DNA of 64,000 nt from Candidatus Anderseniibacteriota bacterium. Its GTDB lineage: Bacteria; Patescibacteriota; Andersenbacteria; UBA10190. Below, piece by piece: positions 11,255-48,412 of the stretch (position 1 is its first letter; every line of letters begins with the position of its first letter). Both the position numbers and the translations under genes were made by a program. The stretch is taken from NCBI GenBank assembly GCA_040876835.1, contig JBBDOX010000018.1, positions 18,232 through 82,231 on the forward strand, given 5' to 3'. The notes beneath the pieces were generated by a model that made no database searches, had not been told where the DNA came from, and saw only the letters and a list, made by a program, of their open reading frames with translations.

Positions 11255-13060
11255 TTATTTCTTCTCGATATTCAGTTTGATATGCAGTTCGCGTAATTGC
11301 TTGTCGTCGACTGTAGACGGCGCGCTCATCATTACGTCTTGAGCCCGACCATTTTTAGGAAATGCGTAAATATCCCTGATACTTGGCACGTCCATAAGTA
11401 CCATCAAAAGGCGATCGACTCCTGGAGCAGATCCGCCATGAGGCGGGGCTCCAAATTCAAAGGCTCGGATCATGGCTCCGAATTTTTCATCTACTTGTTC
11501 CTTAGTGTATCCGGCTATCTCAAACGCTTTATACATAATATCCGGCCGGTGATTTCGAATGGCGCCAGAGCTAGTTTCAAATCCATTTAACACCAAGTCA
11601 TACTGATGCGCCAAGATGTGGATCGGATCTTTGGATACAAGTGCTTCCATTCCCCCTTGAGGCATTGAAAAAGGGTTATGCGAAAAGTCGATCTTTCCTT
11701 CCGTTTCATTAAATTCATACATCGGAAAATCAACAATCCAGCACCAGGCTGCTTTGTTCGGATCCTTCAGGTTCAGTTTTTGGGCAGCCAGATCACGAAC
11801 GGCTCCTAACGCTTTACAGACTACCAGCCACGTGTCCGCCCCGAAAAATATTGCGTCACCTTTTTTAGCGCCGACCTGGTCAGCAATTGCCTGTGCCGCC
11901 TCCTGCCCCAAGTATTTAATGATGGGTGATTCCAGTTCATCCCGTACCAGGATATATGCCAAGCCTTTAGCTCCATGCTCTTTGGCTTTGTCGGTGAGCT
12001 CATCAATCTCCTTGCGGGAGAAAGTTGCGCCCCCTGCTACATGCAAAGCGTGGACTACTCCCCCACCTGCAACCGCGCTGGCGAATACAGAAAATTTCGA
12101 ATCTTTTACCAGGTCAGATACTGCAGAGATGTATAGCTCATACCGCAAGTCCGGCTTATCACTACCATATTTTGTCATTGCCTCTTTCCAGGGAATACGC
12201 GGAAAACGTTTGGCCACAATCTCCTTATCGCTAAACGCTTCCGTCAGCTCTATCATCAGCGGCTCAATGACATTAAATACATCCTCCTGCTCCACGAAAC
12301 TCATTTCCAGATCAAGCTGATAGAACTCTCCGGGGTGACGATCGGCTCGCGGGTCTTCGTCCCGAAAACACGGCGCAATCTGGAAGTAACGGTCTACTCC
12401 CCCGACCATTAACAGCTGTTTGAATTGCTGCGGTGCCTGAGGGAGAGCATAAAAAGTTCCGGGATGAAGGCGGCTGGGCACGAGATAGTCGCGGGCTCCC
12501 TCAGGTGAGGAATTAGCCAGGATGGGCGTCTGCACTTCCGTAAATCCTTCGCCGTGCATATATTCACGAATGTACGTTAAGAACGCGTCACGTTTTTTAA
12601 GCATGTCCTGCAGCCGCTGGTGACGTAGATCCAGAAAACGGTATTTGAGGCGCAGCTCTTCGTTCACATCAATATCTTTGGAGATTTCAAAGGGAAGATG
12701 TTTAGCTTCGCTTAAGAGCGTAAGCTTAGTCACTTCCACTTCTACTTCCCCGGTCGGAATATTCTTGTTTACCATCTCGGCGGGCCGCTGAACCACAATG
12801 CCCGTAATCTGAATGACGAACTCATCACGTAACTGCTCGGCTAATTCAAACACCGTGACATTTTTTTTCGGGTCAAATGTTAGTTGCGTTATTCCGTATC
12901 GATCGCGGAGGTCAATGAAGATCAGCCCTCCGTGATCACGGCGTGAATGAACCCAGCCGGACAACCGCACTTCTTCTCCGACATGTGTAACGCGAAGATC
13001 TCCCGCAGTATGGGTGCGGTACACGTTTGGTTTTATACTTGGAGTTTTCTGTTCTGACAT
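11255..13060 (-). CDS. aspS: Aspartyl-tRNA synthetase
   Basis: Class II aaRS motifs 'FRDEDPRADRHPGEFYQLD' and 'GGSAPGVDRLLM'. OB-fold N-domain. Confidence 0.95.
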   Translation of the reverse strand: MSEQKTPSIKPNVYRTHTAGDLRVTHVGEEVRLSGWVHSRRDHGGLIFIDLRDRYGITQLTFDPKKNVTVFELAEQLRDEFVIQITGIVVQRPAEMVNKNIPTGEVEVEVTKLTLLSEAKHLPFEISKDIDVNEELRLKYRFLDLRHQRLQDMLKKRDAFLTYIREYMHGEGFTEVQTPILANSSPEGARDYLVPSRLHPGTFYALPQAPQQFKQLLMVGGVDRYFQIAPCFRDEDPRADRHPGEFYQLDLEMSFVEQEDVFNVIEPLMIELTEAFSDKEIVAKRFPRIPWKEAMTKYGSDKPDLRYELYISAVSDLVKDSKFSVFASAVAGGGVVHALHVAGGATFSRKEIDELTDKAKEHGAKGLAYILVRDELESPIIKYLGQEAAQAIADQVGAKKGDAIFFGADTWLVVCKALGAVRDLAAQKLNLKDPNKAAWCWIVDFPMYEFNETEGKIDFSHNPFSMPQGGMEALVSKDPIHILAHQYDLVLNGFETSSGAIRNHRPDIMYKAFEIAGYTKEQVDEKFGAMIRAFEFGAPPHGGSAPGVDRLLMVLMDVPSIRDIYAFPKNGRAQDVMMSAPSTVDDKQLRELHIKLNIEKK

Positions 13061-13341
13061 GGCTTAAGGGTACTGGAGATGTGGGTTTATAGGCAACAAA
13101 AAACCGAGAAGACTAACCACAACCCATGTTGCGATTACTCTCCTCGGTTCCTATCCAACTGCAAGCAGCTGGACAAGAGGTCGTATGCCGAGGATGCGCC
13201 CCGCTCCTTCAAACGGGGCTTTTTTGAGGTAATGAACACTGCGCAAATGCGCATTTGAGAATCCCCCTTCTCTCAAACGGGCACTTTTCCACAGATTCTG
13301 AACGAACGTTCAAATATACCGATACGAACAGAAAAAGACAA
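13061..13341 (-). promoter_or_regulatory. aspS 5' leader (~250 nt) with a sigma70-like promoter and a terminator hairpin plus U-tract just before the start codon. T-box-like attenuator candidate.
   Basis: On the minus strand: TTGTCT-17-TATATT promoter (13336..13341 and 13313..13318). Several stem-loops. A 'GGAUAGGAACCGAGG' segment resembling the T-box sequence overlaps the 5' arm of the CCGAGGAGA/UCUUCUCGG terminator stem, which is followed by UUUUUUG about 45 nt before the AUG. Confidence 0.3.
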
Positions 13342-13604
13342 GGGTAAATGCAAAATCCGACTCATCAGTGGCAAAGAGTGAATTCGCGCAAGCAGTAGGA
13401 ATGCACGAGAGCTTAAACACTCAAGACAGGGCAAGCCGAAACTGTCCCAGCTATGTTGCGCTAAGCCACCCCTAACGTAAGTAAATATATCAGGGGCCCC
13501 TCCTTACCACGGACAAGGCGGATTTTTATACCTAATTCAATGAACTGATTATTATAATCATCCAGGAGGTTTTGTCAAGTGCATTTAGAAGACCAAAGAA
13601 AAAG

Positions 13605-13634
13605 CGGGTGGATACAGCTTACATCCGACCCGCT
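13605..13634 (-). terminator. Intrinsic terminator after ORF 13659..14042
   Basis: gcgggtcggatgtaagctgtatccacccgc hairpin followed by TTTTTCTTT on the minus strand. Confidence 0.45.
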
Positions 13635-13658
13635 ACCTTGCTTTTGTGAACTGCTTGG

Positions 13659-14042
13659 CTAGTGTGCAGCCAGCCACCAGTTCCGGCTGTCGCGCTGCCG
13701 TGCGGTCCGGTTGTGCCGACGTCCGCCTCGGTGCTTTTTGGGTTCCCTGGGGCGGAACACACTCTTGAGTCCCGCATAGTTCAGCAGGAGCTCTCGACCA
13801 GCTTCGGGGGGCAACGCCCGCACGTTTGGGTCATGGCGACACTCGACGTGCACCAGGCCAACCTCGGGCGACCCGTTGCGAGCGAGGACCGACGGCTGCT
13901 CCCAGTCGACGTCCTTTTTGCAACCCAGACAGCGATCGTGGCGCTTGATCGCTTGCCGGATCTTTCGCTTCTGCAGCCGCGTCAGTCCTACGCCCAGTGC
14001 CTTGTCTGGGCAGCTTCGCTGCAACACCAGCAGTTCGGTCAT
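13659..14042 (-). CDS. Hypothetical Cys-motif protein (127 aa), high-GC island
   Basis: 'RCLGCKK...(22 aa)...GLVHVECRH' motif, paralogous to the C-terminus of 14255..14956. GC about 60% by eye. Confidence 0.4.
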   Translation of the reverse strand: MTELLVLQRSCPDKALGVGLTRLQKRKIRQAIKRHDRCLGCKKDVDWEQPSVLARNGSPEVGLVHVECRHDPNVRALPPEAGRELLLNYAGLKSVFRPREPKKHRGGRRHNRTARQRDSRNWWLAAH

Positions 14043-14254
14043 GATCCGCTCCCTTGCGAACCAGAAAAATGTCGGCCTATTCCAGTCAGGCCAACGGAAA
14101 GCCTTCGCAGAAAGAAACGTACTAGTGTGACACTACGCCACATAGGGACTACGTTACTCCTCACTTTCATTTTTTGTCAACGCCTTCCGACATAGAAAAA
14201 GAAAAGCGGATGAAGCAGTAAATACTTCACCCGCCTGAAATCCTTCGTCCTGAT

Positions 14255-14956
14255 TCAGCGCCAGGACGCGAACGACTCTTCGTGGCTGCTCGTCGACTGC
14301 TTCCGCAAGTCAGACAGACGCCGCTTTTCGGCCTCGATGACCCTGTCGCGGATGATCCGGCCAATCTCAAGCGAGGTCAGCAGTTGGCACAAGATTCTGG
14401 GGTGCTTCTGCTGAAGCTTTCGCACGCACCTCTGGTCGGCGTGTACCAAGCCGATCGCCTTGCACCGATCACGGTCGCCGATGCGCACCATGTACCCCTT
14501 GTCGAGCACGGGTTCCGTGCATCCCGTGCAAGCGGCATTCTTCTTGAGCCAGGTCCGAGCCTCTTTCTGCTCCTCGGCGTTGAGACCGCGACCTTCCCGC
14601 TTGCCATTGCTGACCCTGACAGCAGCGAACGGGCGCGGGAAGGACAGAAGGCTGGCCTTCGCCATCTTCGTCTTGACCATGCTCTCGTCCAGCTGTTTCC
14701 ACAGCTCGCCGGGGGTGCTCAGTTCGTAATCCCCCTCAGCGTACGCCGCTTCGAAGATCACTTCGATCCGGTTTCCCCTCTTGACAGCCAGGAGCCGCTC
14801 ACCCAGCCGCAGCCACTGCTTCAGAATGGGACACTGCCCATACTGCCAGTCCTGCAGGATGACGAGCACCTCATCGACCGGAACCCCCAGCCAATTTGCC
14901 AACTCAGACAAATTGAAGCCAGCGTGCCGGTTCTGCACTCCCACATCGGTCTTCAT
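14255..14956 (-). CDS. Hypothetical protein (233 aa), high-GC island. N-terminal family motif plus C-terminal CxGC...GLVHxxxRC motif.
   Basis: 'LSELANWLGVPVDEVLVILQDWQY' at the N-terminus, and 'ACTGCTEP...(23 aa)...GLVHADQRC' at the C-terminus. Confidence 0.45.
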   Translation of the reverse strand: MKTDVGVQNRHAGFNLSELANWLGVPVDEVLVILQDWQYGQCPILKQWLRLGERLLAVKRGNRIEVIFEAAYAEGDYELSTPGELWKQLDESMVKTKMAKASLLSFPRPFAAVRVSNGKREGRGLNAEEQKEARTWLKKNAACTGCTEPVLDKGYMVRIGDRDRCKAIGLVHADQRCVRKLQQKHPRILCQLLTSLEIGRIIRDRVIEAEKRRLSDLRKQSTSSHEESFASWR

Positions 14957-15030
14957 TTCGCACTCCTTTCAGACATGAGATACTGGCTCATTCCACGAAC
15001 CAGCGAAAACCACAATCTTGAAAAAAACAA

Positions 15031-15093
15031 GTGTCAAATGACACATATATTTACCCTACACTTTTCACCCTTTTTGTCAATCAGCCTTGACAC
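15031..15093. promoter_or_regulatory. Two palindromic TGTCA/TGACA elements upstream of the minus-strand ORF 14255..14956
   Basis: GTGTCAAATGACAC (15031..15044, perfect 14-bp palindrome) and TTGTCAA-tcagcc-TTGACAC (15074..15093). Confidence 0.3.
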
Positions 15094-15156
15094 TTGCCTA
15101 ACCTGCATCAAAACTTGCAATCTTTGATTTTTATGGGTTTAATACTTCTACCCTAT

Positions 15157-15228
15157 GCGCCCATAGCTCAATGGTAGAGCAGTGGCCTTTTAAGCCAACG
15201 GTTCCAGGTTCAAGTCCTGGTGGGCGCA
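15157..15228 (+). tRNA. tRNA-Lys (anticodon UUU)
   Basis: 72-nt cloverleaf. Acceptor GCGCCCA/TGGGCGC, D-arm GCTC-AATGGTA-GAGC, anticodon loop CTTTTAA, T-arm CCAGG-TTCAAGT-CCTGG, discriminator A. Confidence 0.9.
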
Positions 15229-15325
15229 CAATCTAAAGTATGGTCGCGGTATTAAATTGGAGGCTCAAGTCAGTTTTTAACCTGGCTCTTTTAAGAATAT
15301 CCAGGCATGCAACCCTGGCTCTTTC

Positions 15326-16153
15326 TTAAGGGTTTTTAAGAATTTCTTCAATTCGGGGATTCTGATCAACTTTTCTGCCAAGCAACTGCAGTGATTCAAA
15401 GATATCAGCAATAAGTCCCGCCGCCTGTTCGTTTTTAATAACTACAGCCACTAATTCCTGCCAGTTGGCAATGATCACCGTATCGTTATGCAACGTTACC
15501 TCTGAGTCAAAGTTTAATCGTTCAGCTGGAACATGGTGAGTAATTGCGAGACGCCCACCGTATGCCTGCAAAATATCTTTTGATGATTTCCCCTCTTTTT
15601 TAAGCCGATCAGTGTAGTAATCAAGGAAATTCTCCTGCAGGATCGCCTCAACAATAATTTTTCGATCCTTTATGGATTGATTTAGTTTTACAAGCCGATC
15701 ATAAGGAAAGTGTTTCATTACGCTATAGGCTGAGATGTTCGGTTGCATGATGTGAAGACGAGTATGGCGAGGAAGCTGTCCCAGGCTTTCATAAATCTCA
15801 ACCAACTTATTCTTTCCCGCATACACTTTGTATTCGCTCTGCTGCGAGGAAATAATGCCCAGCTCTTGCTCACCTGACTCCTCCGCAATTTCGTGAGAAT
15901 GCGCAAGCATGAATAGTTTTTCGCGCAATTTTCTTGGCGATACCGTCTTCCAGTATCGCCGCTTGCCGCGGTTAGTGGTAGTAACTAGGCCTCGCTCCTT
16001 CAGGCGTGAAAGCCTCGGGTATACACTCGTGCGCGGCTGGTGAGTACTTCGGGCCAGCTCAGACACACTTAAATCGTGCTTTTCGAGCATTTTGAGAAGC
16101 GCATTATCTTCTGACGTAAGCCCTAATAAGGTGAGCGATTCCCGAGTAAACAT
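15326..16153 (-). CDS. TrmB-like winged-helix transcriptional regulator
   Basis: N-terminal wHTH 'LSVSELARSTHQPRTSVYPRLSRLKERGLV' followed by a C-terminal effector-like domain. Host-like GC. Confidence 0.55.
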   Translation of the reverse strand: MFTRESLTLLGLTSEDNALLKMLEKHDLSVSELARSTHQPRTSVYPRLSRLKERGLVTTTNRGKRRYWKTVSPRKLREKLFMLAHSHEIAEESGEQELGIISSQQSEYKVYAGKNKLVEIYESLGQLPRHTRLHIMQPNISAYSVMKHFPYDRLVKLNQSIKDRKIIVEAILQENFLDYYTDRLKKEGKSSKDILQAYGGRLAITHHVPAERLNFDSEVTLHNDTVIIANWQELVAVVIKNEQAAGLIADIFESLQLLGRKVDQNPRIEEILKNP

Positions 16154-16342
16154 ATATTCATTATATATTATGACGTAATTTACGTCAACATAACTTCATA
16201 TAATATGGCTATACGTAACTGTAAACAAGCCTAAAGTAAAAAAGTGTTGTGAAAAATAGAGGTTAGCGCCGCAATGCACCAAACTTGGGCTACACAGTCA
16301 ATGACCGCTCTTTTCATGTCCAAATCTTGGAGGGAATACGCC

Positions 16343-17326
16343 ATGTCAGACCTTACCGAAGACCGCCAGGTCCTGGTCAACCTCGAGATCAATAAGGACT
16401 GTCAGCTCACCAGTGTGTGTGGTGACAGTTGTTTTCTGAACCTCGTGGAGAAAGCCTTGCCTGGTGTGGAGCGACTTGCGCCGGCGGCAGTACTTGCCGC
16501 CGCTCGGGAAGTAATCGACCACGGTCAGACAGTGCGTCACCTTGCTATTACGGGCAAGGAGCCGCTGGACACCCCGGATCTGTTGTTCGACATCTTGCGG
16601 TATTACCATGCTGCACCAGTCGAGTCACGGCCGGGTACCGTGGGCATTATTACGTCGGGCTTGCAACTTCGACGACATGCCCACCGCTTCCCGGAGTTGC
16701 CGCTGGATTGGTGTGCTATGTCCCTTGATATCGCATCATCGGTCTTGCATGTCGAGCGCATGAACGAAAAGCTGTTCGGCGACCTGCTACACGTGAAGGA
16801 CACTGGCGGGATCAAGTCGTTCACGGTTAATTCCGTGTACACGGCTGATAACTACAAGGATGTCCTGCAATTCGGCAAATGGCTTACCGCTAAGCTGGGC
16901 GAAGGAGACCAGTGGGGCTTGTCATCACTGATGCTTCCTCAGCATGGCGTGATGCAGCCAACTGTTTCGATTCCGGCGACCCGCGAGATGATTGACCTCG
17001 CACTCGAGGAGTTGAGTGATACAGCCTGCGATATCCTCTTCGAACCTGACCCTGACGAGTTTGAGATTTTGACTGGCAAGTCAGTCAAGAAGCGATGGCG
17101 AACTGAGCTGCACCTCGCTGGGGGTATCTGGATGATTACGGTACCAAGCGAAGAAGGCTACTTTGTACGGCTGCGCTGGGATGGGCAGCTGTTGACCCGC
17201 AAGGACTTGCGATGCATTGGTCTTCGCCAGGCGACCTACGGCGCCTACCAGGCAGGTAGACTCGTAGAAACACTGGAGCGGTTGAGTGTTACTCGGTCGC
17301 TGGACCAGCAACCCACACAACACTGA
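16343..17326 (+). CDS. Radical-SAM-fold protein with a non-canonical Cx5Cx3C cysteine cluster (high-GC island)
   Basis: 'NKDCQLTSVCGDSCF' cluster, a 'LAITGKEPLD' (GGEPLL-like) motif, and 'GIITSGLQL' and 'MSLD' elements in the expected radical SAM order. GGAGGG Shine-Dalgarno before the ATG at 16343 (the ORF track starts at 16274). Confidence 0.45.
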   Translation: MSDLTEDRQVLVNLEINKDCQLTSVCGDSCFLNLVEKALPGVERLAPAAVLAAAREVIDHGQTVRHLAITGKEPLDTPDLLFDILRYYHAAPVESRPGTVGIITSGLQLRRHAHRFPELPLDWCAMSLDIASSVLHVERMNEKLFGDLLHVKDTGGIKSFTVNSVYTADNYKDVLQFGKWLTAKLGEGDQWGLSSLMLPQHGVMQPTVSIPATREMIDLALEELSDTACDILFEPDPDEFEILTGKSVKKRWRTELHLAGGIWMITVPSEEGYFVRLRWDGQLLTRKDLRCIGLRQATYGAYQAGRLVETLERLSVTRSLDQQPTQH

Positions 17327-17333
17327 GGTGACC

Positions 17334-17549
17334 ATGGTGTTAGGCAACGAGATGGCGAACGAGGGTCTCTCAAGAAGGAAGAGGAGGACGCAGATGGTAC
17401 TCGGCAACGAGATGGCAAAGGAAAACCTGCGCGAACGTCTGCACAAGACGACGAGCCAGGCAGCAAAGAAGCAGTCCCCAGCGGACGCCCCCAAGGACGA
17501 GAAGTGTGAGAACCAGGAGAGCAAGGAACAGGCTCACGGTTCGCACTAG
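17334..17549 (+). CDS. Small K/E-rich peptide (71 aa) with a duplicated N-terminal 'MVLGNEMA(N/K)E' motif, translationally coupled to the radical-SAM-like gene
   Basis: AGGTGA Shine-Dalgarno 4 nt before the ATG, which lies 8 nt after the upstream TGA stop. A near-tandem DNA repeat encodes MVLGNEMANEG and MVLGNEMAKEN. Single Cys, then a hairpin plus T-run terminator. Confidence 0.35.
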   Translation: MVLGNEMANEGLSRRKRRTQMVLGNEMAKENLRERLHKTTSQAAKKQSPADAPKDEKCENQESKEQAHGSH

Positions 17550-17571
17550 CAGACTCTCTGTCTGCGCCCCG

Positions 17572-17607
17572 CCCCCAGGTTTTACAACTTGGGGGTCTTT
17601 TTCTTTT
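17572..17607 (+). terminator. Intrinsic terminator after the peptide gene
   Basis: cccccagg-tttacaa-cttggggg hairpin followed by a T-rich run (TCTTTTTCTTTTC). Confidence 0.5.
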
Positions 17608-17615
17608 CACAGATG

Positions 17616-17644
17616 TTGACACTAATGGATCGCCATGATAATAC
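17616..17644 (+). promoter_or_regulatory. Sigma70-like promoter for ORF 17704..17997
   Basis: TTGACA, a 17-nt spacer, then TAATAC. AGGAGA Shine-Dalgarno before the ATG at 17704. Confidence 0.4.
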
Positions 17645-17703
17645 TTTCTGGTCAAACTACGGTGGTTTGATAATGGGTTGACACTCTTTAGGAGAGCCCA
17701 CAG

Positions 17704-17997
17704 ATGGAAACGAGCAAGACGGTGGCAGTGAAGCGTCGTCCATTCCACGAGACGGTCGTCGACGCCATCAACGCCTGCGACGTGGAGACGTTCCTGTGCC
17801 TGACAGAGCTGATCAAGATTACCAAAATCCCCAAGGGGCATGACGAGATCATCTCAGCCTGGGAGGGACGTCGGGAGCAACTGGTCTTCCCCGACGGATA
17901 CCGCGGGGTGGTGGCTGATCTCCTCGAGCAGAAAGAGGAAGCAGCCGCGAAGGAAGTGGCCAAGCAAGAGGCAGAGCCCATCTCCTCCCCGTCCTGA
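17704..17997 (+). CDS. Hypothetical protein (97 aa), high-GC orphan carrying the family N-terminal motif
   Basis: 'ETVVDAINACDVETFLCLTELIKITKIPKGHDEIISAWEG' aligns with the 'GLPIQEKDILSWVEF' block of ORF 6628..7017. Confidence 0.45.
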   Translation: METSKTVAVKRRPFHETVVDAINACDVETFLCLTELIKITKIPKGHDEIISAWEGRREQLVFPDGYRGVVADLLEQKEEAAAKEVAKQEAEPISSPS

Positions 17998-18142
17998 GTT
18001 CCTTGACCGCGCAAGCGCACGACCTACGGGTACGGCGTTTTTCTTTTGTTGATTGTGCTACAATATAGTCATAAGTTATCCACATTGCTTTCGGGGGAGG
18101 GGCGTTGGATTATCCTTCATTAAACATTAAACACAAATACGT

Positions 18143-18790
18143 ATGAACAGGAAGTTCTTGTGGTCAGTGGGCGGAGTCGGCACCCTGGCTGCTTTATTAT
18201 TAGTAATCGGCCTTGGTACAACAGCGGCCAGTACCTCGTACACATTCGTCGTGCGCGGAGTAGTTGAGTCCGTTAACACCAGCACTGGTGTGATGAACGT
18301 CACTGGTACTTTCGCTTCGGCGAAGGCCATAGTTGATACCCAGAGCAAGAATATCGGCTATTCAGTTAAGAATGCCAAGTTCACTAAGTGGGAGAATGGC
18401 GTGCGAGTTAAGCGTAATATCAAGCACGTTGCTGTAGGTGATGAAGTTGTCCTTAAGGGCAGCAAAACAACTGGCGGATCATTTGTCGTTGACGAGCTGA
18501 CCGTTAATGATCGCGGATTTGAAGTAGTTGGACGCGTTCGTGACATTGATACTGAAGAAAATAGCATCACGGTTGTAGTGGGACGCTCCACATATAAGCA
18601 TAAGGCGTATGTTAATAAGGAAGTGAAAGTGTACTACATTGACGATGTAACTAAATGTCGACGTCTTGGTACAGAAATTGATTGTAGCGAGATCCAAGCT
18701 GACAACCAGGGTATCAAGGTTAAAGGTGGTCTGACCGGCGCCGAAGGTAAGTGGGAAATATCCCACGCCTGGAACCAGTATCCTCTGTAA
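18143..18790 (+). CDS. Secreted or membrane-anchored hypothetical protein with two beta-rich internal repeats
   Basis: N-terminal hydrophobic anchor. Repeated 'FVVRGVVESV..' and 'FEVVGRVRDI..' modules. Host-like GC. Confidence 0.5.
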   Translation: MNRKFLWSVGGVGTLAALLLVIGLGTTAASTSYTFVVRGVVESVNTSTGVMNVTGTFASAKAIVDTQSKNIGYSVKNAKFTKWENGVRVKRNIKHVAVGDEVVLKGSKTTGGSFVVDELTVNDRGFEVVGRVRDIDTEENSITVVVGRSTYKHKAYVNKEVKVYYIDDVTKCRRLGTEIDCSEIQADNQGIKVKGGLTGAEGKWEISHAWNQYPL

Positions 18791-47523: not shown

Positions 47524-47973
47524 TCAGGAGACCTGCTCCTGCAGGAAGCTGAGGTATCCCCCACGCCGCAGCCGCAGATCACGACGCTCTTCGGGCAGGT
47601 ACGTGACCTGCAAGTCCTCGACGGCTTCCACCACGACGACGTTGCCGCGGTTGAAGATCCTGCACTTGCAGCTCAGGAACCCGTACTTCATGGTCCTGAC
47701 CCGAGTGAAGATCCGCTCCACGGAGCTGTTTGAGAAGTGAACGGACGGAGACTCGGAGAGAATGATCCTCCCCTGCTCGACCGGGCGGACTTCTCCCTTG
47801 CCGGCAATGAGAGCCGGGCAGAAGGAGAGGGTGGCCGCACGCGAGGAATCGGCCTTGACGCCCACTCCCTCGAGCCGCAGGTTTTCGGCACCATAGCCTG
47901 GCGCGATGCCTGCCTCCTCCAGCGTCCGCAAGAACGAACTCTCCTGGTCGGCCAACAGTGAGTACCGCGACAT
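47524..47973 (-). CDS. Hypothetical protein (149 aa), high-GC orphan
   Basis: GGGAGGG Shine-Dalgarno 6 nt before the ATG of 'MSRYSLL'. The overlapping ORF 47579..48007 is R/G/P-rich, typical of an off-frame artefact. Confidence 0.4.
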   Translation of the reverse strand: MSRYSLLADQESSFLRTLEEAGIAPGYGAENLRLEGVGVKADSSRAATLSFCPALIAGKGEVRPVEQGRIILSESPSVHFSNSSVERIFTRVRTMKYGFLSCKCRIFNRGNVVVVEAVEDLQVTYLPEERRDLRLRRGGYLSFLQEQVS

Positions 47974-48121: not shown

Positions 48122-48412
48122 TTACTCACCGCGCTTGAAGTGCTCCCGGCAATATACCGGACGGCCTTCTGTTGGGCGAAACGGTACTTGCGTAGCCGCG
48201 CCACAGGTGGCACAAACAGCATCAAACATTTGACGCTCTCGGCGACCGAAGTCACCGCCACCGCCACCGGACTGCTGTCCGCGCATCTCTTTGAAGCACG
48301 AGCTACAGTACACAGGACGATCGCCTGAAGGCTGAAACGGAACTTGCGTTTCGTTTCCGCACTTGGAGCAGACCGCATCGAACATCGGTCGGTCTGAACT
48401 TCCATCCATCAT
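48122..48412 (-). CDS. Tandem double CxxC zinc-ribbon protein (96 aa; zf-trcl-like), high GC
   Basis: Internal duplication: 'RPMFDAVCSKCGNETQVPFQPSGDRPVYCSSCFK' and 'RQMFDAVCATCGAATQVPFRPTEGRPVYCREHFK', joined by a Gly-rich linker. Confidence 0.5.
   Translation of the reverse strand: MMDGSSDRPMFDAVCSKCGNETQVPFQPSGDRPVYCSSCFKEMRGQQSGGGGGDFGRRERQMFDAVCATCGAATQVPFRPTEGRPVYCREHFKRGE

What the first reader, a model, noticed from the sequence alone, without database searches (positions are those of the whole stretch)
13605..15228. High-GC island beside tRNA-Lys encoding two paralogous CxGC...GLVH..C proteins under TGTCA/TGACA palindromes
ORFs 13659..14042 and 14255..14956 share a motif: C-x-G-C, then 22-23 aa, then G-L-V-H and a downstream Cys ('RCLGCKK..GLVHVECRH' and 'ACTGCTEP..GLVHADQRC'). 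This is a zinc-binding, possibly HNH-like module. The larger protein also carries the family N-terminal motif. Their upstream region contains a perfect 14-bp palindrome GTGTCAAATGACAC and a second TTGTCAA-N6-TTGACAC element, which are candidate operator sites. The island ends at tRNA-Lys(UUU), a classic integration hotspot, but no integrase is present.
Basis: partly seen in the sequence, partly recalled or inferred. Interest (0 to 1): 0.65.

Follow-up and report, generated by a model that had tools for sequence, protein, structure and literature searches.

The report
Duplicated orphan gene pair beside tRNA-Lys
Two neighbouring small genes with foreign, G+C-rich codon usage and no detectable relatives in any database searched are diverged tandem copies of one transcription unit, sitting in a variable gap of a candidate-phylum bacterium's genome. 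They probably encode basic, metal-binding nucleic-acid-binding proteins, but their function remains unproven.

Summary
Window 13,590-15,150 of a Candidatus Andersenbacteria contig holds two minus-strand genes. ORF A is 13659..14042 (127 aa) and ORF B is 14255..14956 (233 aa). Their third-codon-position G+C (GC3) is 0.75 and 0.80, against 0.50±0.04 for 30 host genes. The non-coding parts have host-like or lower G+C (38-47%).

The two genes are true paralogues:
- The protein alignment is reached by 1 of 2000 shuffles.
- The C-x-G-C…GLVH motif occurs nowhere else in 2.15 Mb of six-frame translation.
- Their promoters plus 5' leaders (79% identity) and their terminators are also homologous.
- So the whole transcription unit was duplicated, and ORF A is roughly ORF B without its first ~105 residues.

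No relative was found: not in a 5.8-billion-cluster protein index (both genes), an exhaustive scan of 1.84 billion representatives (ORF B only), Pfam, NCBIfam, PHROGs, PADLOC or PDB, nor by translated search of phage, plasmid and viral DNA collections.

- The HNH-like reading is not supported.
- The "perfect 14-bp palindrome" is a 6-2-6 dyad.
- The second palindrome looks like two back-to-back TTGACA -35 boxes.
- There is no integrase and no att repeat, and the genes lie 5' of the tRNA.

Three relatives do show that the tRNA-Lys-to-aspS interval carries different cargo in each genome.

Most likely these are foreign-derived, possibly autoregulated, zinc-finger-type nucleic-acid-binding proteins. 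Interest is modest.

The parts
14255..14956 (-). ORF B, 233 aa, pI 9.4. It has an N-terminal ~105-aa extension with a helix-turn-helix-like segment (residues 13-36), then the shared module (C143-x2-C146 ... G169-L-V-H172 ... C177), then a helical tail.
   Evidence: ORF. Codon-position G+C is 0.61/0.42/0.80. An AAGGAG Shine-Dalgarno sequence lies 7 nt before the ATG. NCBI names it hypothetical protein WD200_04455. It has no relative among 1.84 billion representatives. There is a weak sub-threshold hit to Rv2175c_wHTH, E = 0.036.
13659..14042 (-). ORF A, 127 aa, pI 10.9. It is colinear with ORF B residues ~119-232 and carries C38-x2-C41 ... G62-L-V-H65-x2-C68-x-H70, followed by an Arg-rich tail.
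   Evidence: Codon-position G+C is 0.71/0.47/0.75. A GGGAG Shine-Dalgarno sequence is present. This exact sequence is on record only from the Logan assembly.
15053..15080 (-). Predicted promoter of ORF B: TTGACA (15080..15075), 16-nt spacer, TAGGGT (15058..15053).
   Evidence: TTGACA positions. The pattern TTGACA-N16-18-TAnnnT is seen at other intergenic sites of this genome. It falls below the consensus scan's threshold, so it is inferred, not shown.
14151..14180 (-). Predicted promoter of ORF A: TTGACA (14180..14175), 18-nt spacer, TAACGT (14156..14151).
   Evidence: It is homologous to ORF B's promoter region. Inferred.
15031..15044 (.). Dyad GTGTCA-AA-TGACAC (6-2-6), about +2 to +15 of the predicted ORF B transcript. 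On the minus strand it is followed by a T-run. It is a candidate operator or 5' stem-loop.
14123..14135 (.). Dyad TAGTGT-G-ACACTA (6-1-6) at the homologous place in ORF A's leader, about +9 to +21.
   Evidence: Dyads of this kind occur at 0.09 per 100 nt in the window.
14982..15004 (-). Conserved leader hairpin of unit B, with a UGGAAU motif conserved in the loop region.
   Evidence: RNA fold. The outer 7 pairs are compared with unit A: two pairs change on both sides, three change on one side, and all stay paired.
14071..14095 (-). Conserved leader hairpin of unit A (9 bp, loop ACUGGAA), followed by AUUUUUC.
14194..14236 (-). Intrinsic terminator of ORF B: 14-pair stem plus T-run.
   Evidence: Fold energy is -25.9 kcal/mol, z = -5.1.
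13594..13634 (-). Intrinsic terminator of ORF A, similar in sequence to ORF B's terminator.
   Evidence: Fold. The alignment with terminator B scores z = 4.7.
15075..15092 (.). TTGTCAA-N6-TTGACAC: a minus-strand TTGACA (ORF B's -35) back to back with a plus-strand TTGACA that faces tRNA-Lys.
   Evidence: The reading as divergent -35 boxes is an inference.
15157..15229 (+). tRNA-Lys(UUU), the right-hand boundary. It is divergent from ORF B, so the gene pair lies on its 5' side.
   Evidence: In relatives the tRNA points towards aspS, so it is inverted here.

Best explanation
The segment at about 13,590-15,150 is a lineage-specific two-gene insertion in a variable interval of a Candidatus Andersenbacteria chromosome. 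A conserved small-RNA gene and aspS bound it on one side, and tRNA-Lys bounds it on the other.

It consists of two tandem, homologous, single-gene transcription units. Each has a host-type TTGACA promoter and a ~95-100-nt leader. The leader carries a dyad just after the predicted start and a conserved hairpin with a conserved UGGAAU motif in its loop region. A Shine-Dalgarno site, the coding sequence and an intrinsic terminator follow.

The coding sequences have the codon usage of a genome of roughly 60-65% G+C (my estimate from GC3), so they probably came from an unsampled G+C-rich gene pool. The duplication probably predates their arrival, or the codon bias is being maintained.

The products are basic proteins. 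They share a ~110-residue region built around C-x2-C-x23/25-H-x4-[H/C], which I read as a zinc-finger-type nucleic-acid-binding module. ORF B adds an N-terminal domain with a weak winged-helix-like segment.

My inferred mechanism is that the proteins bind DNA or RNA, and that each probably regulates its own expression through the dyad or hairpin in its leader.

Shown here: the anatomy, the paralogy, the foreign composition, the orphan status and the variability of the interval. Inferred: zinc binding, nucleic-acid binding and autoregulation.
For: CODING REALITY
- Codon-position G+C follows the coding pattern GC3 > GC1 > GC2.
- Both genes have Shine-Dalgarno sites and their own terminators.

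FOREIGN CODON USAGE
- GC3 z-scores are 5.9 and 7.1.
- AAG supplies 85% of Lys codons, against 39% in host genes.

PARALOGY OF THE WHOLE UNITS
- Protein alignment. Motif uniqueness.
- The upstream regions are 79% identical over 125 aligned positions, z = 6.4. The terminators align with z = 4.7.
- An nhmmer profile of the upstream region finds only these two copies.

ORPHAN STATUS
- No significant match. One search gave only a chance-level hit (E = 0.04).

AN INDEPENDENT ASSEMBLY AGREES
- Logan contig L081 equals window 13494..15229 exactly.

VARIABLE INTERVAL
- L015, L090 and L091 each carry different cargo between tRNA-Lys and aspS.
- The flanking small RNA is conserved in L090 and the aspS leader in five other genomes. 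Together they bracket the insertion.

NUCLEIC-ACID BINDING
- pI is 10.9 for ORF A and 9.4 for ORF B, and ORF A has an Arg-rich tail.
- The C, C and H positions are invariant, and H+5 is His in A and Cys in B.
- ORF B residues 13-36 hit a winged-helix profile weakly.
- The low-confidence model of ORF A orders its elements as helix, CxxC, beta-hairpin, then a short helix after H65.

LEADER ELEMENTS
- Both leaders carry a dyad just after the predicted start, and the hairpin shows compensatory changes.
Against: - No profile, structure or homologue supports any fold or function.
- Both AlphaFold models are unreliable, with mean pLDDT 37 and 45.
- The zinc site rests on two sequences only.
- The two dyads differ in half-site spacing (1 against 2 nt at the centre, with different arms), so a single shared operator protein is unlikely.
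- Unit A's hairpin has a U-run after it and unit B's does not, so a common attenuator is unlikely.
- The promoters were not called by the consensus scan.
- Host-type promoters flanking foreign-looking coding sequences are awkward for a simple block-transfer model.
- At least two more G+C-rich ORFs lie elsewhere in the window (ORF C, itself an orphan, and ORF D). This could mean the codon bias is a native property of a gene class and not a sign of transfer.
- ORF A was not searched exhaustively, only through the word index.
Confidence: 0.45

Rival explanations
1. The pair is the remnant of an element that integrated at tRNA-Lys. An integrase-bearing island inserted next to tRNA-Lys, and later lost its integrase and att sites. 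An inversion then flipped the tRNA. This concerns origin and is compatible with the best explanation of function.
For: In three relatives, tRNA-Lys points towards aspS and the space 3' of it holds unrelated cargo in each genome. In the window the tRNA is inverted, and cargo lies on both sides: ORF A and B on one side, and the TrmB-like gene, the radical-SAM-like gene and ORF D on the other. Composition is foreign.
Against: No integrase or fragment of one was found in the ORFs scanned, antisense ORFs included. There is no second copy of the tRNA 3' end at up to 3 mismatches, and no flanking direct or inverted repeats. The pair is on the 5' side of the tRNA. None of the relatives' cargo examined looks like an integrase (read by eye only, not profile-scanned).
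Confidence: 0.25
2. These are native, rapidly evolving lineage-specific genes. The pair arose and duplicated within this lineage, and the high GC3 reflects selection or a local mutational bias shared by a class of small accessory genes.
For: The promoters, Shine-Dalgarno sites and terminators are host-like. ORF C (GC3 0.83, also an orphan) and ORF D (GC3 0.77) lie at other loci. Several other genes with no Pfam match have GC3 of 0.64-0.68. A large survey found that prokaryotic orphan genes mostly look native (PMC11293555).
Against: The same survey found that orphan genes match their host's G+C closely (rho 0.96), whereas these deviate by 6-7 sd. No trace of them exists in relatives at 66-70% AspRS identity. 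No mechanism is known that would hold GC3 at 0.8 in a 49.6% G+C genome.
Confidence: 0.15
3. The shared module is an HNH-like or other zinc-dependent nuclease, for example a homing or defence nuclease.
For: A CxxC pair followed by a conserved His, as in zinc-stabilised HNH proteins. The position beside a tRNA in a variable region also fits.
Against: There is no HNH or other nuclease profile match, even when sub-sequences are scanned at E up to 10, and no PADLOC match. Only one His is invariant, with no invariant Asn or second His after it. There is no second CxxC.
Confidence: 0.05
4. The ORFs are spurious, and the G+C-rich stretches are non-coding (structured RNA) or an assembly chimera.
For: G+C-rich DNA carries long chance ORFs. 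Overlapping ORFs of 177 and 281 aa exist on the opposite strand. NCBI's annotation has no record of ORF A's exact sequence.
Against: There is strong three-base periodicity in the minus-strand frames only. Shine-Dalgarno sites, terminators and a shared protein motif are present. An independent assembly gives an identical sequence spanning both G+C-rich and A+T-rich parts. There is no Rfam match.
Confidence: 0.03

Closest known systems
tRNA-adjacent genomic islets or integrative elements
   Same: Foreign base composition, absence from relatives, and a position in an interval next to tRNA-Lys that carries different genes in each related genome.
   Different: No integrase, no att duplication of the tRNA 3' end, and the genes lie on the 5' side of the tRNA. 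The insertion is only 1.55 kb, and its regulatory DNA is host-like.
Long-spacer CCH[H/C] zinc fingers, such as the BED-type pattern Cx2CxnHx3-5[H/C] (recalled from general knowledge), and treble-clef fingers
   Same: The ligand pattern C-x2-C-x23/25-H-x4-[H/C], basic proteins, and the order of elements in the low-confidence model: knuckle, beta-hairpin, helix.
   Different: No Pfam zinc-finger profile matches, and the structure could not be predicted with confidence. The resemblance is at pattern level only.
Small excisionase/MerR-like winged-helix regulators (Pfam Rv2175c_wHTH, PF21531)
   Same: ORF B residues 13-36 (FNLSELANWLGVPVDEVLVILQDW) align to the helix-turn-helix core of the profile. 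The gene is small, has its own promoter, and has a dyad at the start of its transcript.
   Different: The score of 14.5 bits is far below the 27.1-bit cut-off. The putative recognition helix is acidic and hydrophobic, not basic. The rest of the protein is unrelated.
Species-specific orphan genes of prokaryotes (PMC11293555)
   Same: Short, without homologues, and apparently functional genes.
   Different: That survey finds that orphan genes match host G+C (rho 0.96) and that virus-derived ones are lower in G+C. These are 11-15 points higher in G+C than the host genes.
HNH endonucleases
   Same: CxxC followed by a conserved His.
   Different: The catalytic H-N-H triad is not conserved between the two paralogues, and there is no profile match.

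Membership tests
HNH endonuclease | Match to an HNH profile (Pfam, NCBIfam or PHROGs) | tested here: not met
   No family at E <= 1 for the full proteins, and none at E <= 10 for the isolated modules against Pfam.
HNH endonuclease | Conserved catalytic His...Asn...His on a beta-beta-alpha-metal fold | tested here: not met
   Only H65/H172 is invariant. No Asn or second His is conserved after it. The fold could not be tested because pLDDT is 45.
Zinc finger (CCH[H/C], treble-clef or BED-like) | Four conserved metal ligands with compatible spacing | tested here: inconclusive
   C38/C143, C41/C146 and H65/H172 are invariant, and H+5 is H70 in A and C177 in B. This rests on two sequences only.
Zinc finger (CCH[H/C], treble-clef or BED-like) | Profile or structural match to a known zinc-finger family | tested here: not met
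   No Pfam or PDB match. The AlphaFold models are too poor for a fold search.
Zinc finger (CCH[H/C], treble-clef or BED-like) | Bound zinc | not testable with these tools
   Needs metal analysis of purified protein.
tRNA-integrated genomic island | Tyrosine or serine recombinase gene | tested here: not met
   None among the ORFs scanned in 13.0-18.9 kb, antisense ORFs included.
tRNA-integrated genomic island | Direct repeat of the tRNA 3' end at the far boundary | tested here: not met
   The 20-nt 3' end occurs once in 64 kb at up to 3 mismatches. There are no flanking repeats.
tRNA-integrated genomic island | Island lies 3' of the tRNA | tested here: not met
   ORF A and B lie 5' of tRNA-Lys. 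In relatives the variable cargo is 3' of it, so an inversion would have to be assumed.
tRNA-integrated genomic island | Foreign composition and absence from related genomes | tested here: met
   GC3 z-scores of 5.9 and 7.1. No homologue in the relatives' loci or in the databases.
Winged-helix / HTH regulator (ORF B N-terminus) | Profile match above the curated threshold | tested here: inconclusive
   Rv2175c_wHTH at E = 0.036, 14.5 bits against a 27.1-bit cut-off, residues 13-36. Nothing is found when the full-length protein is scanned.
Ribosomal protein bS20-like helical bundle | Profile-profile similarity | tested here: not met
   The A/B profile hit PDB bS20 chains at E = 0.07.
Known anti-phage defence system | Match to a PADLOC model | tested here: not met
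   No match for ORFs A, B, C or D.

The most novel reading that the evidence does not exclude
ORF A and ORF B may be the first sampled members of a new zinc-finger nucleic-acid-binding family. In this reading they come from an unsampled G+C-rich gene pool, such as the host organism or the mobile elements of this episymbiotic candidate-phylum bacterium. They would evolve very fast in their coding sequence while their ~150-nt promoter-leader is held constant. The leader would be conserved because it is the proteins' own RNA or DNA operator, through the hairpin with the conserved UGGAAU motif or the post-start dyad. Together with ORF C, and perhaps ORF D (not searched), they would mark a recurrent stream of such single-gene cassettes into this genome.
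Probability: 0.12. Interest if true: 0.5.

Novelty: new variant of a known kind. Interest (0 to 1): 0.3.

Why it matters
If the reading is right, this small-genome bacterium is acquiring, or keeping, single-gene units whose codon usage points to a G+C-rich source absent from the very large protein collections searched here. That would give a handle on who exchanges genes with these uncultured organisms.

The pair is also an unusual case in which regulatory DNA is far better conserved than the coding sequence it drives. That pattern points to a functional leader element.

On present evidence, however, it is a pair of hypothetical genes with no assignable function. Such genes are common in these genomes.

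Tried and rejected
HOMOLOGY SEARCHES (none gave a significant match)
- Pfam, NCBIfam, PHROGs and PADLOC.
- Word-indexed protein search for ORFs A, B and C.
- Exhaustive phmmer of ORF B against 1.84 billion representatives.
- PDB by sequence and by profile.
- tblastn against phages and plasmids. The only hit is at chance level, E = 0.04.
- Protein-seeded scans of viral contigs.

STRUCTURE PREDICTION
- ORF B alone gave pLDDT 37. ORF A with the two-row alignment gave pLDDT 45.
- I therefore ran no fold search, because matches to such models would be meaningless.

bS20 LEAD
- The profile hit at E = 0.07 was rejected by hhalign, probability 0.56%.

DNA PATTERNS FROM THE SHARED PROMOTER AND LEADER
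- Scanning viral contigs gave 8 and 3 matches.
- None extends to the rest of the leader or encodes a relative, so they are chance matches.

OCCUPIED VERSUS EMPTY SITE
- AspRS-anchored scans of genome and metagenome collections found nothing closer than 70% identity over the full-length protein; a partial match, L119, reached 73%. A clean occupied/empty comparison is therefore impossible.
- Only family-level synteny could be used.

LOGAN CONTIGS OF THE SOURCE RUN
- The contig carrying aspS ends at 13344, the island contig begins at 13494, and the island and TrmB-side contigs overlap at 15200-15229.
- They give no alternative junction. The break inside the tRNA's 3' end looks like an assembly-graph branch at a sequence shared with other genomes in the sample. 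That is my inference; the assembler's word size was not checked.

OTHER IDEAS SET ASIDE
- Integron-cassette idea (similar flanks around dissimilar ORFs): set aside because the ORFs are in fact homologous and no integrase was found. The terminators are ~33-nt simple hairpins, and by eye I saw no GTTRRRY boxes. No attC model was available to test this.
- T-box upstream of aspS: no Rfam match. By eye, no conserved UGGN bulge is visible in the alignment.
Full report
WHAT IS THERE

The window comes from a 188.5-kb contig that NCBI labels Candidatus Andersenbacteria; the label is attached to ORF B, hypothetical protein WD200_04455. Between aspS (11255..13060, minus strand) and tRNA-Lys(UUU) (15157..15229, plus strand) lie two minus-strand ORFs. 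ORF A is 13659..14042 (127 aa) and ORF B is 14255..14956 (233 aa).

Mean G+C over sliding 400-nt windows is 0.496 with sd 0.038. The windows starting at 13601 (0.630) and 14401 (0.620) are, together with one near 47.5 kb, the highest.

The excess is confined to the coding sequences. Codon-position G+C is 0.71/0.47/0.75 for ORF A and 0.61/0.42/0.80 for ORF B. Thirty host genes average GC3 0.497±0.042, which gives z = 5.9 and 7.1. The three non-coding stretches of the segment have 38-47% G+C.

The GC3 > GC1 > GC2 pattern holds only in the minus-strand frames. The longer plus-strand ORFs (177 and 281 aa) show the mirror pattern expected of antisense frames and match no family. Each ORF has a Shine-Dalgarno sequence 7 nt before its ATG (GGGAG for A, AAGGAG for B) and its own intrinsic terminator.

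An independent assembly of the source run (Logan contig L081) reproduces window 13494..15229 base for base. The junctions between G+C-rich and A+T-rich DNA are therefore not an artefact of one assembler.

THE TWO GENES ARE PARALOGUES, AND SO ARE THEIR FLANKS

- BLASTP aligns ORF A residues 17-69 with ORF B residues 122-176 at 28% identity, pairwise E = 0.002.
- A Smith-Waterman alignment extends colinearly from A14-122 to B119-232. It scores 63 against 31±5.2 for shuffled sequences, and 1 of 2000 shuffles reaches it.
- The pattern C-x-G-C…G-[LIVM]-[LIVM]-H…C, and a looser form of it, occur only in these two ORFs in 2.15 Mb of window plus fetched loci translated in six frames.
- The ~150 nt upstream of each start codon are homologous: 79% identity over 125 aligned positions, z = 6.4. 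The terminators are similar as well, z = 4.7.
- A profile of the upstream region finds only these two copies in the window and none in 169 other loci.

So a whole transcription unit was duplicated in tandem. ORF A corresponds to ORF B without its first ~105 residues.

It is unusual that the regulatory DNA is much better conserved than the coding DNA. BLASTN finds essentially nothing between the two coding sequences.

THE PALINDROMES

GTGTCAAATGACAC (15031-15044) has 6-bp arms around a mismatched AA centre, so it is not a perfect 14-mer. At the homologous place in unit A there is a different dyad, TAGTGT-G-ACACTA (14123-14135). Such dyads occur at 0.09 per 100 nt in the window.

I place the promoters as follows:
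- ORF B: TTGACA (15080..15075), 16-nt spacer, TAGGGT.
- ORF A: TTGACA (14180..14175), 18-nt spacer, TAACGT.

This follows the TTGACA-N16-18-TAnnnT pattern seen at other intergenic sites of this genome. Both promoters fall below the consensus scanner's threshold, so they are inferences. With those promoters, both dyads fall within about the first 20 nt of the transcript. That is where an operator or a stabilising 5' stem-loop would sit.

The second element, TTGTCAA-N6-TTGACAC, is the minus-strand -35 box of ORF B next to a plus-strand TTGACA (15087-15092) that faces tRNA-Lys. Unit A has no such partner. I therefore read it as divergent promoters and not as an operator.

Further downstream, both leaders carry a hairpin (14071-14095 and 14982-15004) with a conserved UGGAAU motif in the loop region. 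Of the seven outer pairs, two change on both sides, three change on one side, and all remain paired. This is suggestive, but it rests on two sequences.

WHAT THE PROTEINS ARE

No search gave a significant match:
- Pfam, NCBIfam, PHROGs and PADLOC.
- A 5.8-billion-cluster index, which returned only the proteins themselves.
- An exhaustive phmmer of ORF B against 1.84 billion representatives, which also returned only itself.
- PDB.
- Phage and plasmid DNA by tblastn.
- Viral contigs.

AlphaFold gave unusable models, with pLDDT 37 and 45.

What the sequences themselves show:
- Both proteins are basic, with pI 10.9 and 9.4.
- ORF A has C38, C41, H65, C68 and H70. ORF B has C143, C146, H172 and C177.
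- The common pattern is C-x2-C-x23/25-H-x4-[H/C].

This fits a zinc finger with a long spacer. The low-confidence model orders its elements as helix, CxxC, beta-hairpin, then a short helix after the His, which is the order found in a treble clef. That is only a hint.

An HNH reading fails. Only one His is invariant, no Asn or second His is conserved, and no profile matches even when the isolated modules are scanned at E up to 10.

ORF B residues 13-36 give a weak sub-threshold hit to a winged-helix profile, Rv2175c_wHTH, E = 0.036. A borderline profile hit to ribosomal protein bS20 was rejected by hhalign, probability 0.56%.

CONTEXT AND ORIGIN

There is no integrase, no second copy of the tRNA 3' end and no flanking repeats. 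The pair also lies on the 5' side of the tRNA.

AspRS-anchored scans found no close relative; the best full-length match is 70% identity. Three family-level relatives nevertheless keep the backbone. In L015 and L090 the order is dnaJ, a gene related to window 18143..18790, tRNA-Lys, cargo, aspS. L091 has tRNA-Lys, cargo, aspS.

Their cargo between tRNA-Lys and aspS differs each time:
- L090: an amidohydrolase-like gene, an ATPase-like gene and a 500-aa protein (my reading of the translations, not profile-scanned).
- L015: a 175-aa ORF and the same ATPase-like gene.
- L091: a 936-aa protein.

None encodes anything like ORF A or B. In all three the tRNA points towards aspS, whereas in the window it points away and cargo sits on both sides. 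A single inversion of about 15,157-18,100 would restore the common arrangement. That is my inference.

The left edge of the insertion is well defined. The perfect promoter TTGACA-16-TATAAT at 13578..13551 heads an ORF-free structured RNA, which is conserved in L090 behind a similar promoter. Beyond it lies a conserved aspS leader.

Two other ORFs in the window share the extreme codon bias: ORF C at 47524..47973 (GC3 0.83), which is also an orphan, and ORF D at 17704..17997 (GC3 0.77). A large survey reports that prokaryotic orphan genes normally match host G+C and that virus-derived ones are lower (PMC11293555). A set of orphans 10-15 points richer in G+C than the host genes is therefore atypical.

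VERDICT

The HNH, perfect-palindrome and tRNA-integration readings are not supported as stated.

The best-supported description is a tandemly duplicated, foreign-looking orphan gene unit in a variable interval. It encodes basic proteins with a probable CCH[H/C] metal site, possibly autoregulated through conserved leader elements. Function remains inferred, so my confidence is 0.45 for the whole statement. It is much higher for the anatomy and low for the mechanism.

Noticed in passing
window 13345-13578 (minus strand); L090 4319-4560: A perfect sigma-70-type promoter (TTGACA-16-TATAAT, 13578..13551) heads an ORF-free RNA of about 200 nt. It folds far better than shuffles (-77.9 against -56.5±4.0 kcal/mol, z = -5.3). 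It has a homologue in the closest relative (nhmmer E = 2e-8), which sits behind TTGACA-16-TATACT and also folds well (z = -3.9). Both have a long closing stem and share the conserved core CAGUUUCGGCUUGCC.UGUCUUG. There is no Rfam match. It is a candidate undescribed small RNA.
   Followed up: partly
window 13075-13235 (minus strand); L015 7792-7918, L090 6799-6993, L020 2891-2976, L022 206-259, L105 2939-3008: A conserved leader lies upstream of aspS in six Andersenbacteria-like genomes. It has a nearly invariant 45-nt 5' part (AGCCCCGUYUUGAAGGAGCGGGGCGCAUCCUNGG.CAUACGACCU) and a covarying terminator hairpin. A candidate antiterminator pairing also covaries (CCUCGG/CCGAGG, CCUAGG/CCUAGG, CCUGGG/CCCAGG). 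There is no Rfam match and no T-box signature, so it may be an undescribed attenuator.
   Followed up: partly
window 47524-47973 (minus strand) and 17704-17997 (plus strand): Two more small ORFs have extreme GC3 (0.83 and 0.77, z = 7.8 and 6.5). ORF C has a Shine-Dalgarno site and what looks by eye like its own terminator; ORF D has a Shine-Dalgarno site and TTGACA boxes upstream. ORF C is also an orphan (found only as itself), and neither has a Pfam or PADLOC match.
   Followed up: partly
window 15326-17549: A TrmB-like helix-turn-helix regulator (15326..16153, minus strand) sits beside a radical-SAM-like ORF (16274..17326, plus strand; weak Pfam and viperin-model hits). A 71-aa ORF follows, with a tandem repeat encoding MVLGNEMANE / MVLGNEMAKE (17334-17362 and 17394-17422). 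This may be a peptide-modification cassette.
   Followed up: no
window 15157-15229 compared with L015 5450-5525, L090 2054-2126, L091 2570-2643: tRNA-Lys is inverted relative to aspS compared with the three relatives. There, it points towards aspS and the variable cargo lies 3' of it. In L015 and L090 it directly follows the gene related to window 18143..18790.
   Followed up: partly
window 13344, 13494 and 15200-15229: The Logan contig carrying aspS ends at 13344, and the island contig begins at 13494. The island and TrmB-side contigs overlap by 30 nt inside the tRNA 3' end (15200-15229). The 149 nt from 13345 to 13493, inside the candidate small RNA, lie on no recovered contig. This may reflect strain variation in the sample, but it is unexplained.
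   Followed up: no
window 48122-48412 (minus strand): A 96-aa protein made of two copies of a 'probable treble clef zinc finger' (PF23477, E = 1e-37) lies directly upstream of orphan ORF C. It is unrelated in sequence to ORF A and B.
   Followed up: no
window 13135-13226 (plus strand): A strong terminator-like hairpin plus T-run lies on the plus strand, antisense to the aspS leader. It gives a weak Rfam hit to Betaproteobacteria_toxic_sRNA (E = 0.17, below threshold). The T-run is not conserved in relatives, so it is probably incidental.
   Followed up: partly
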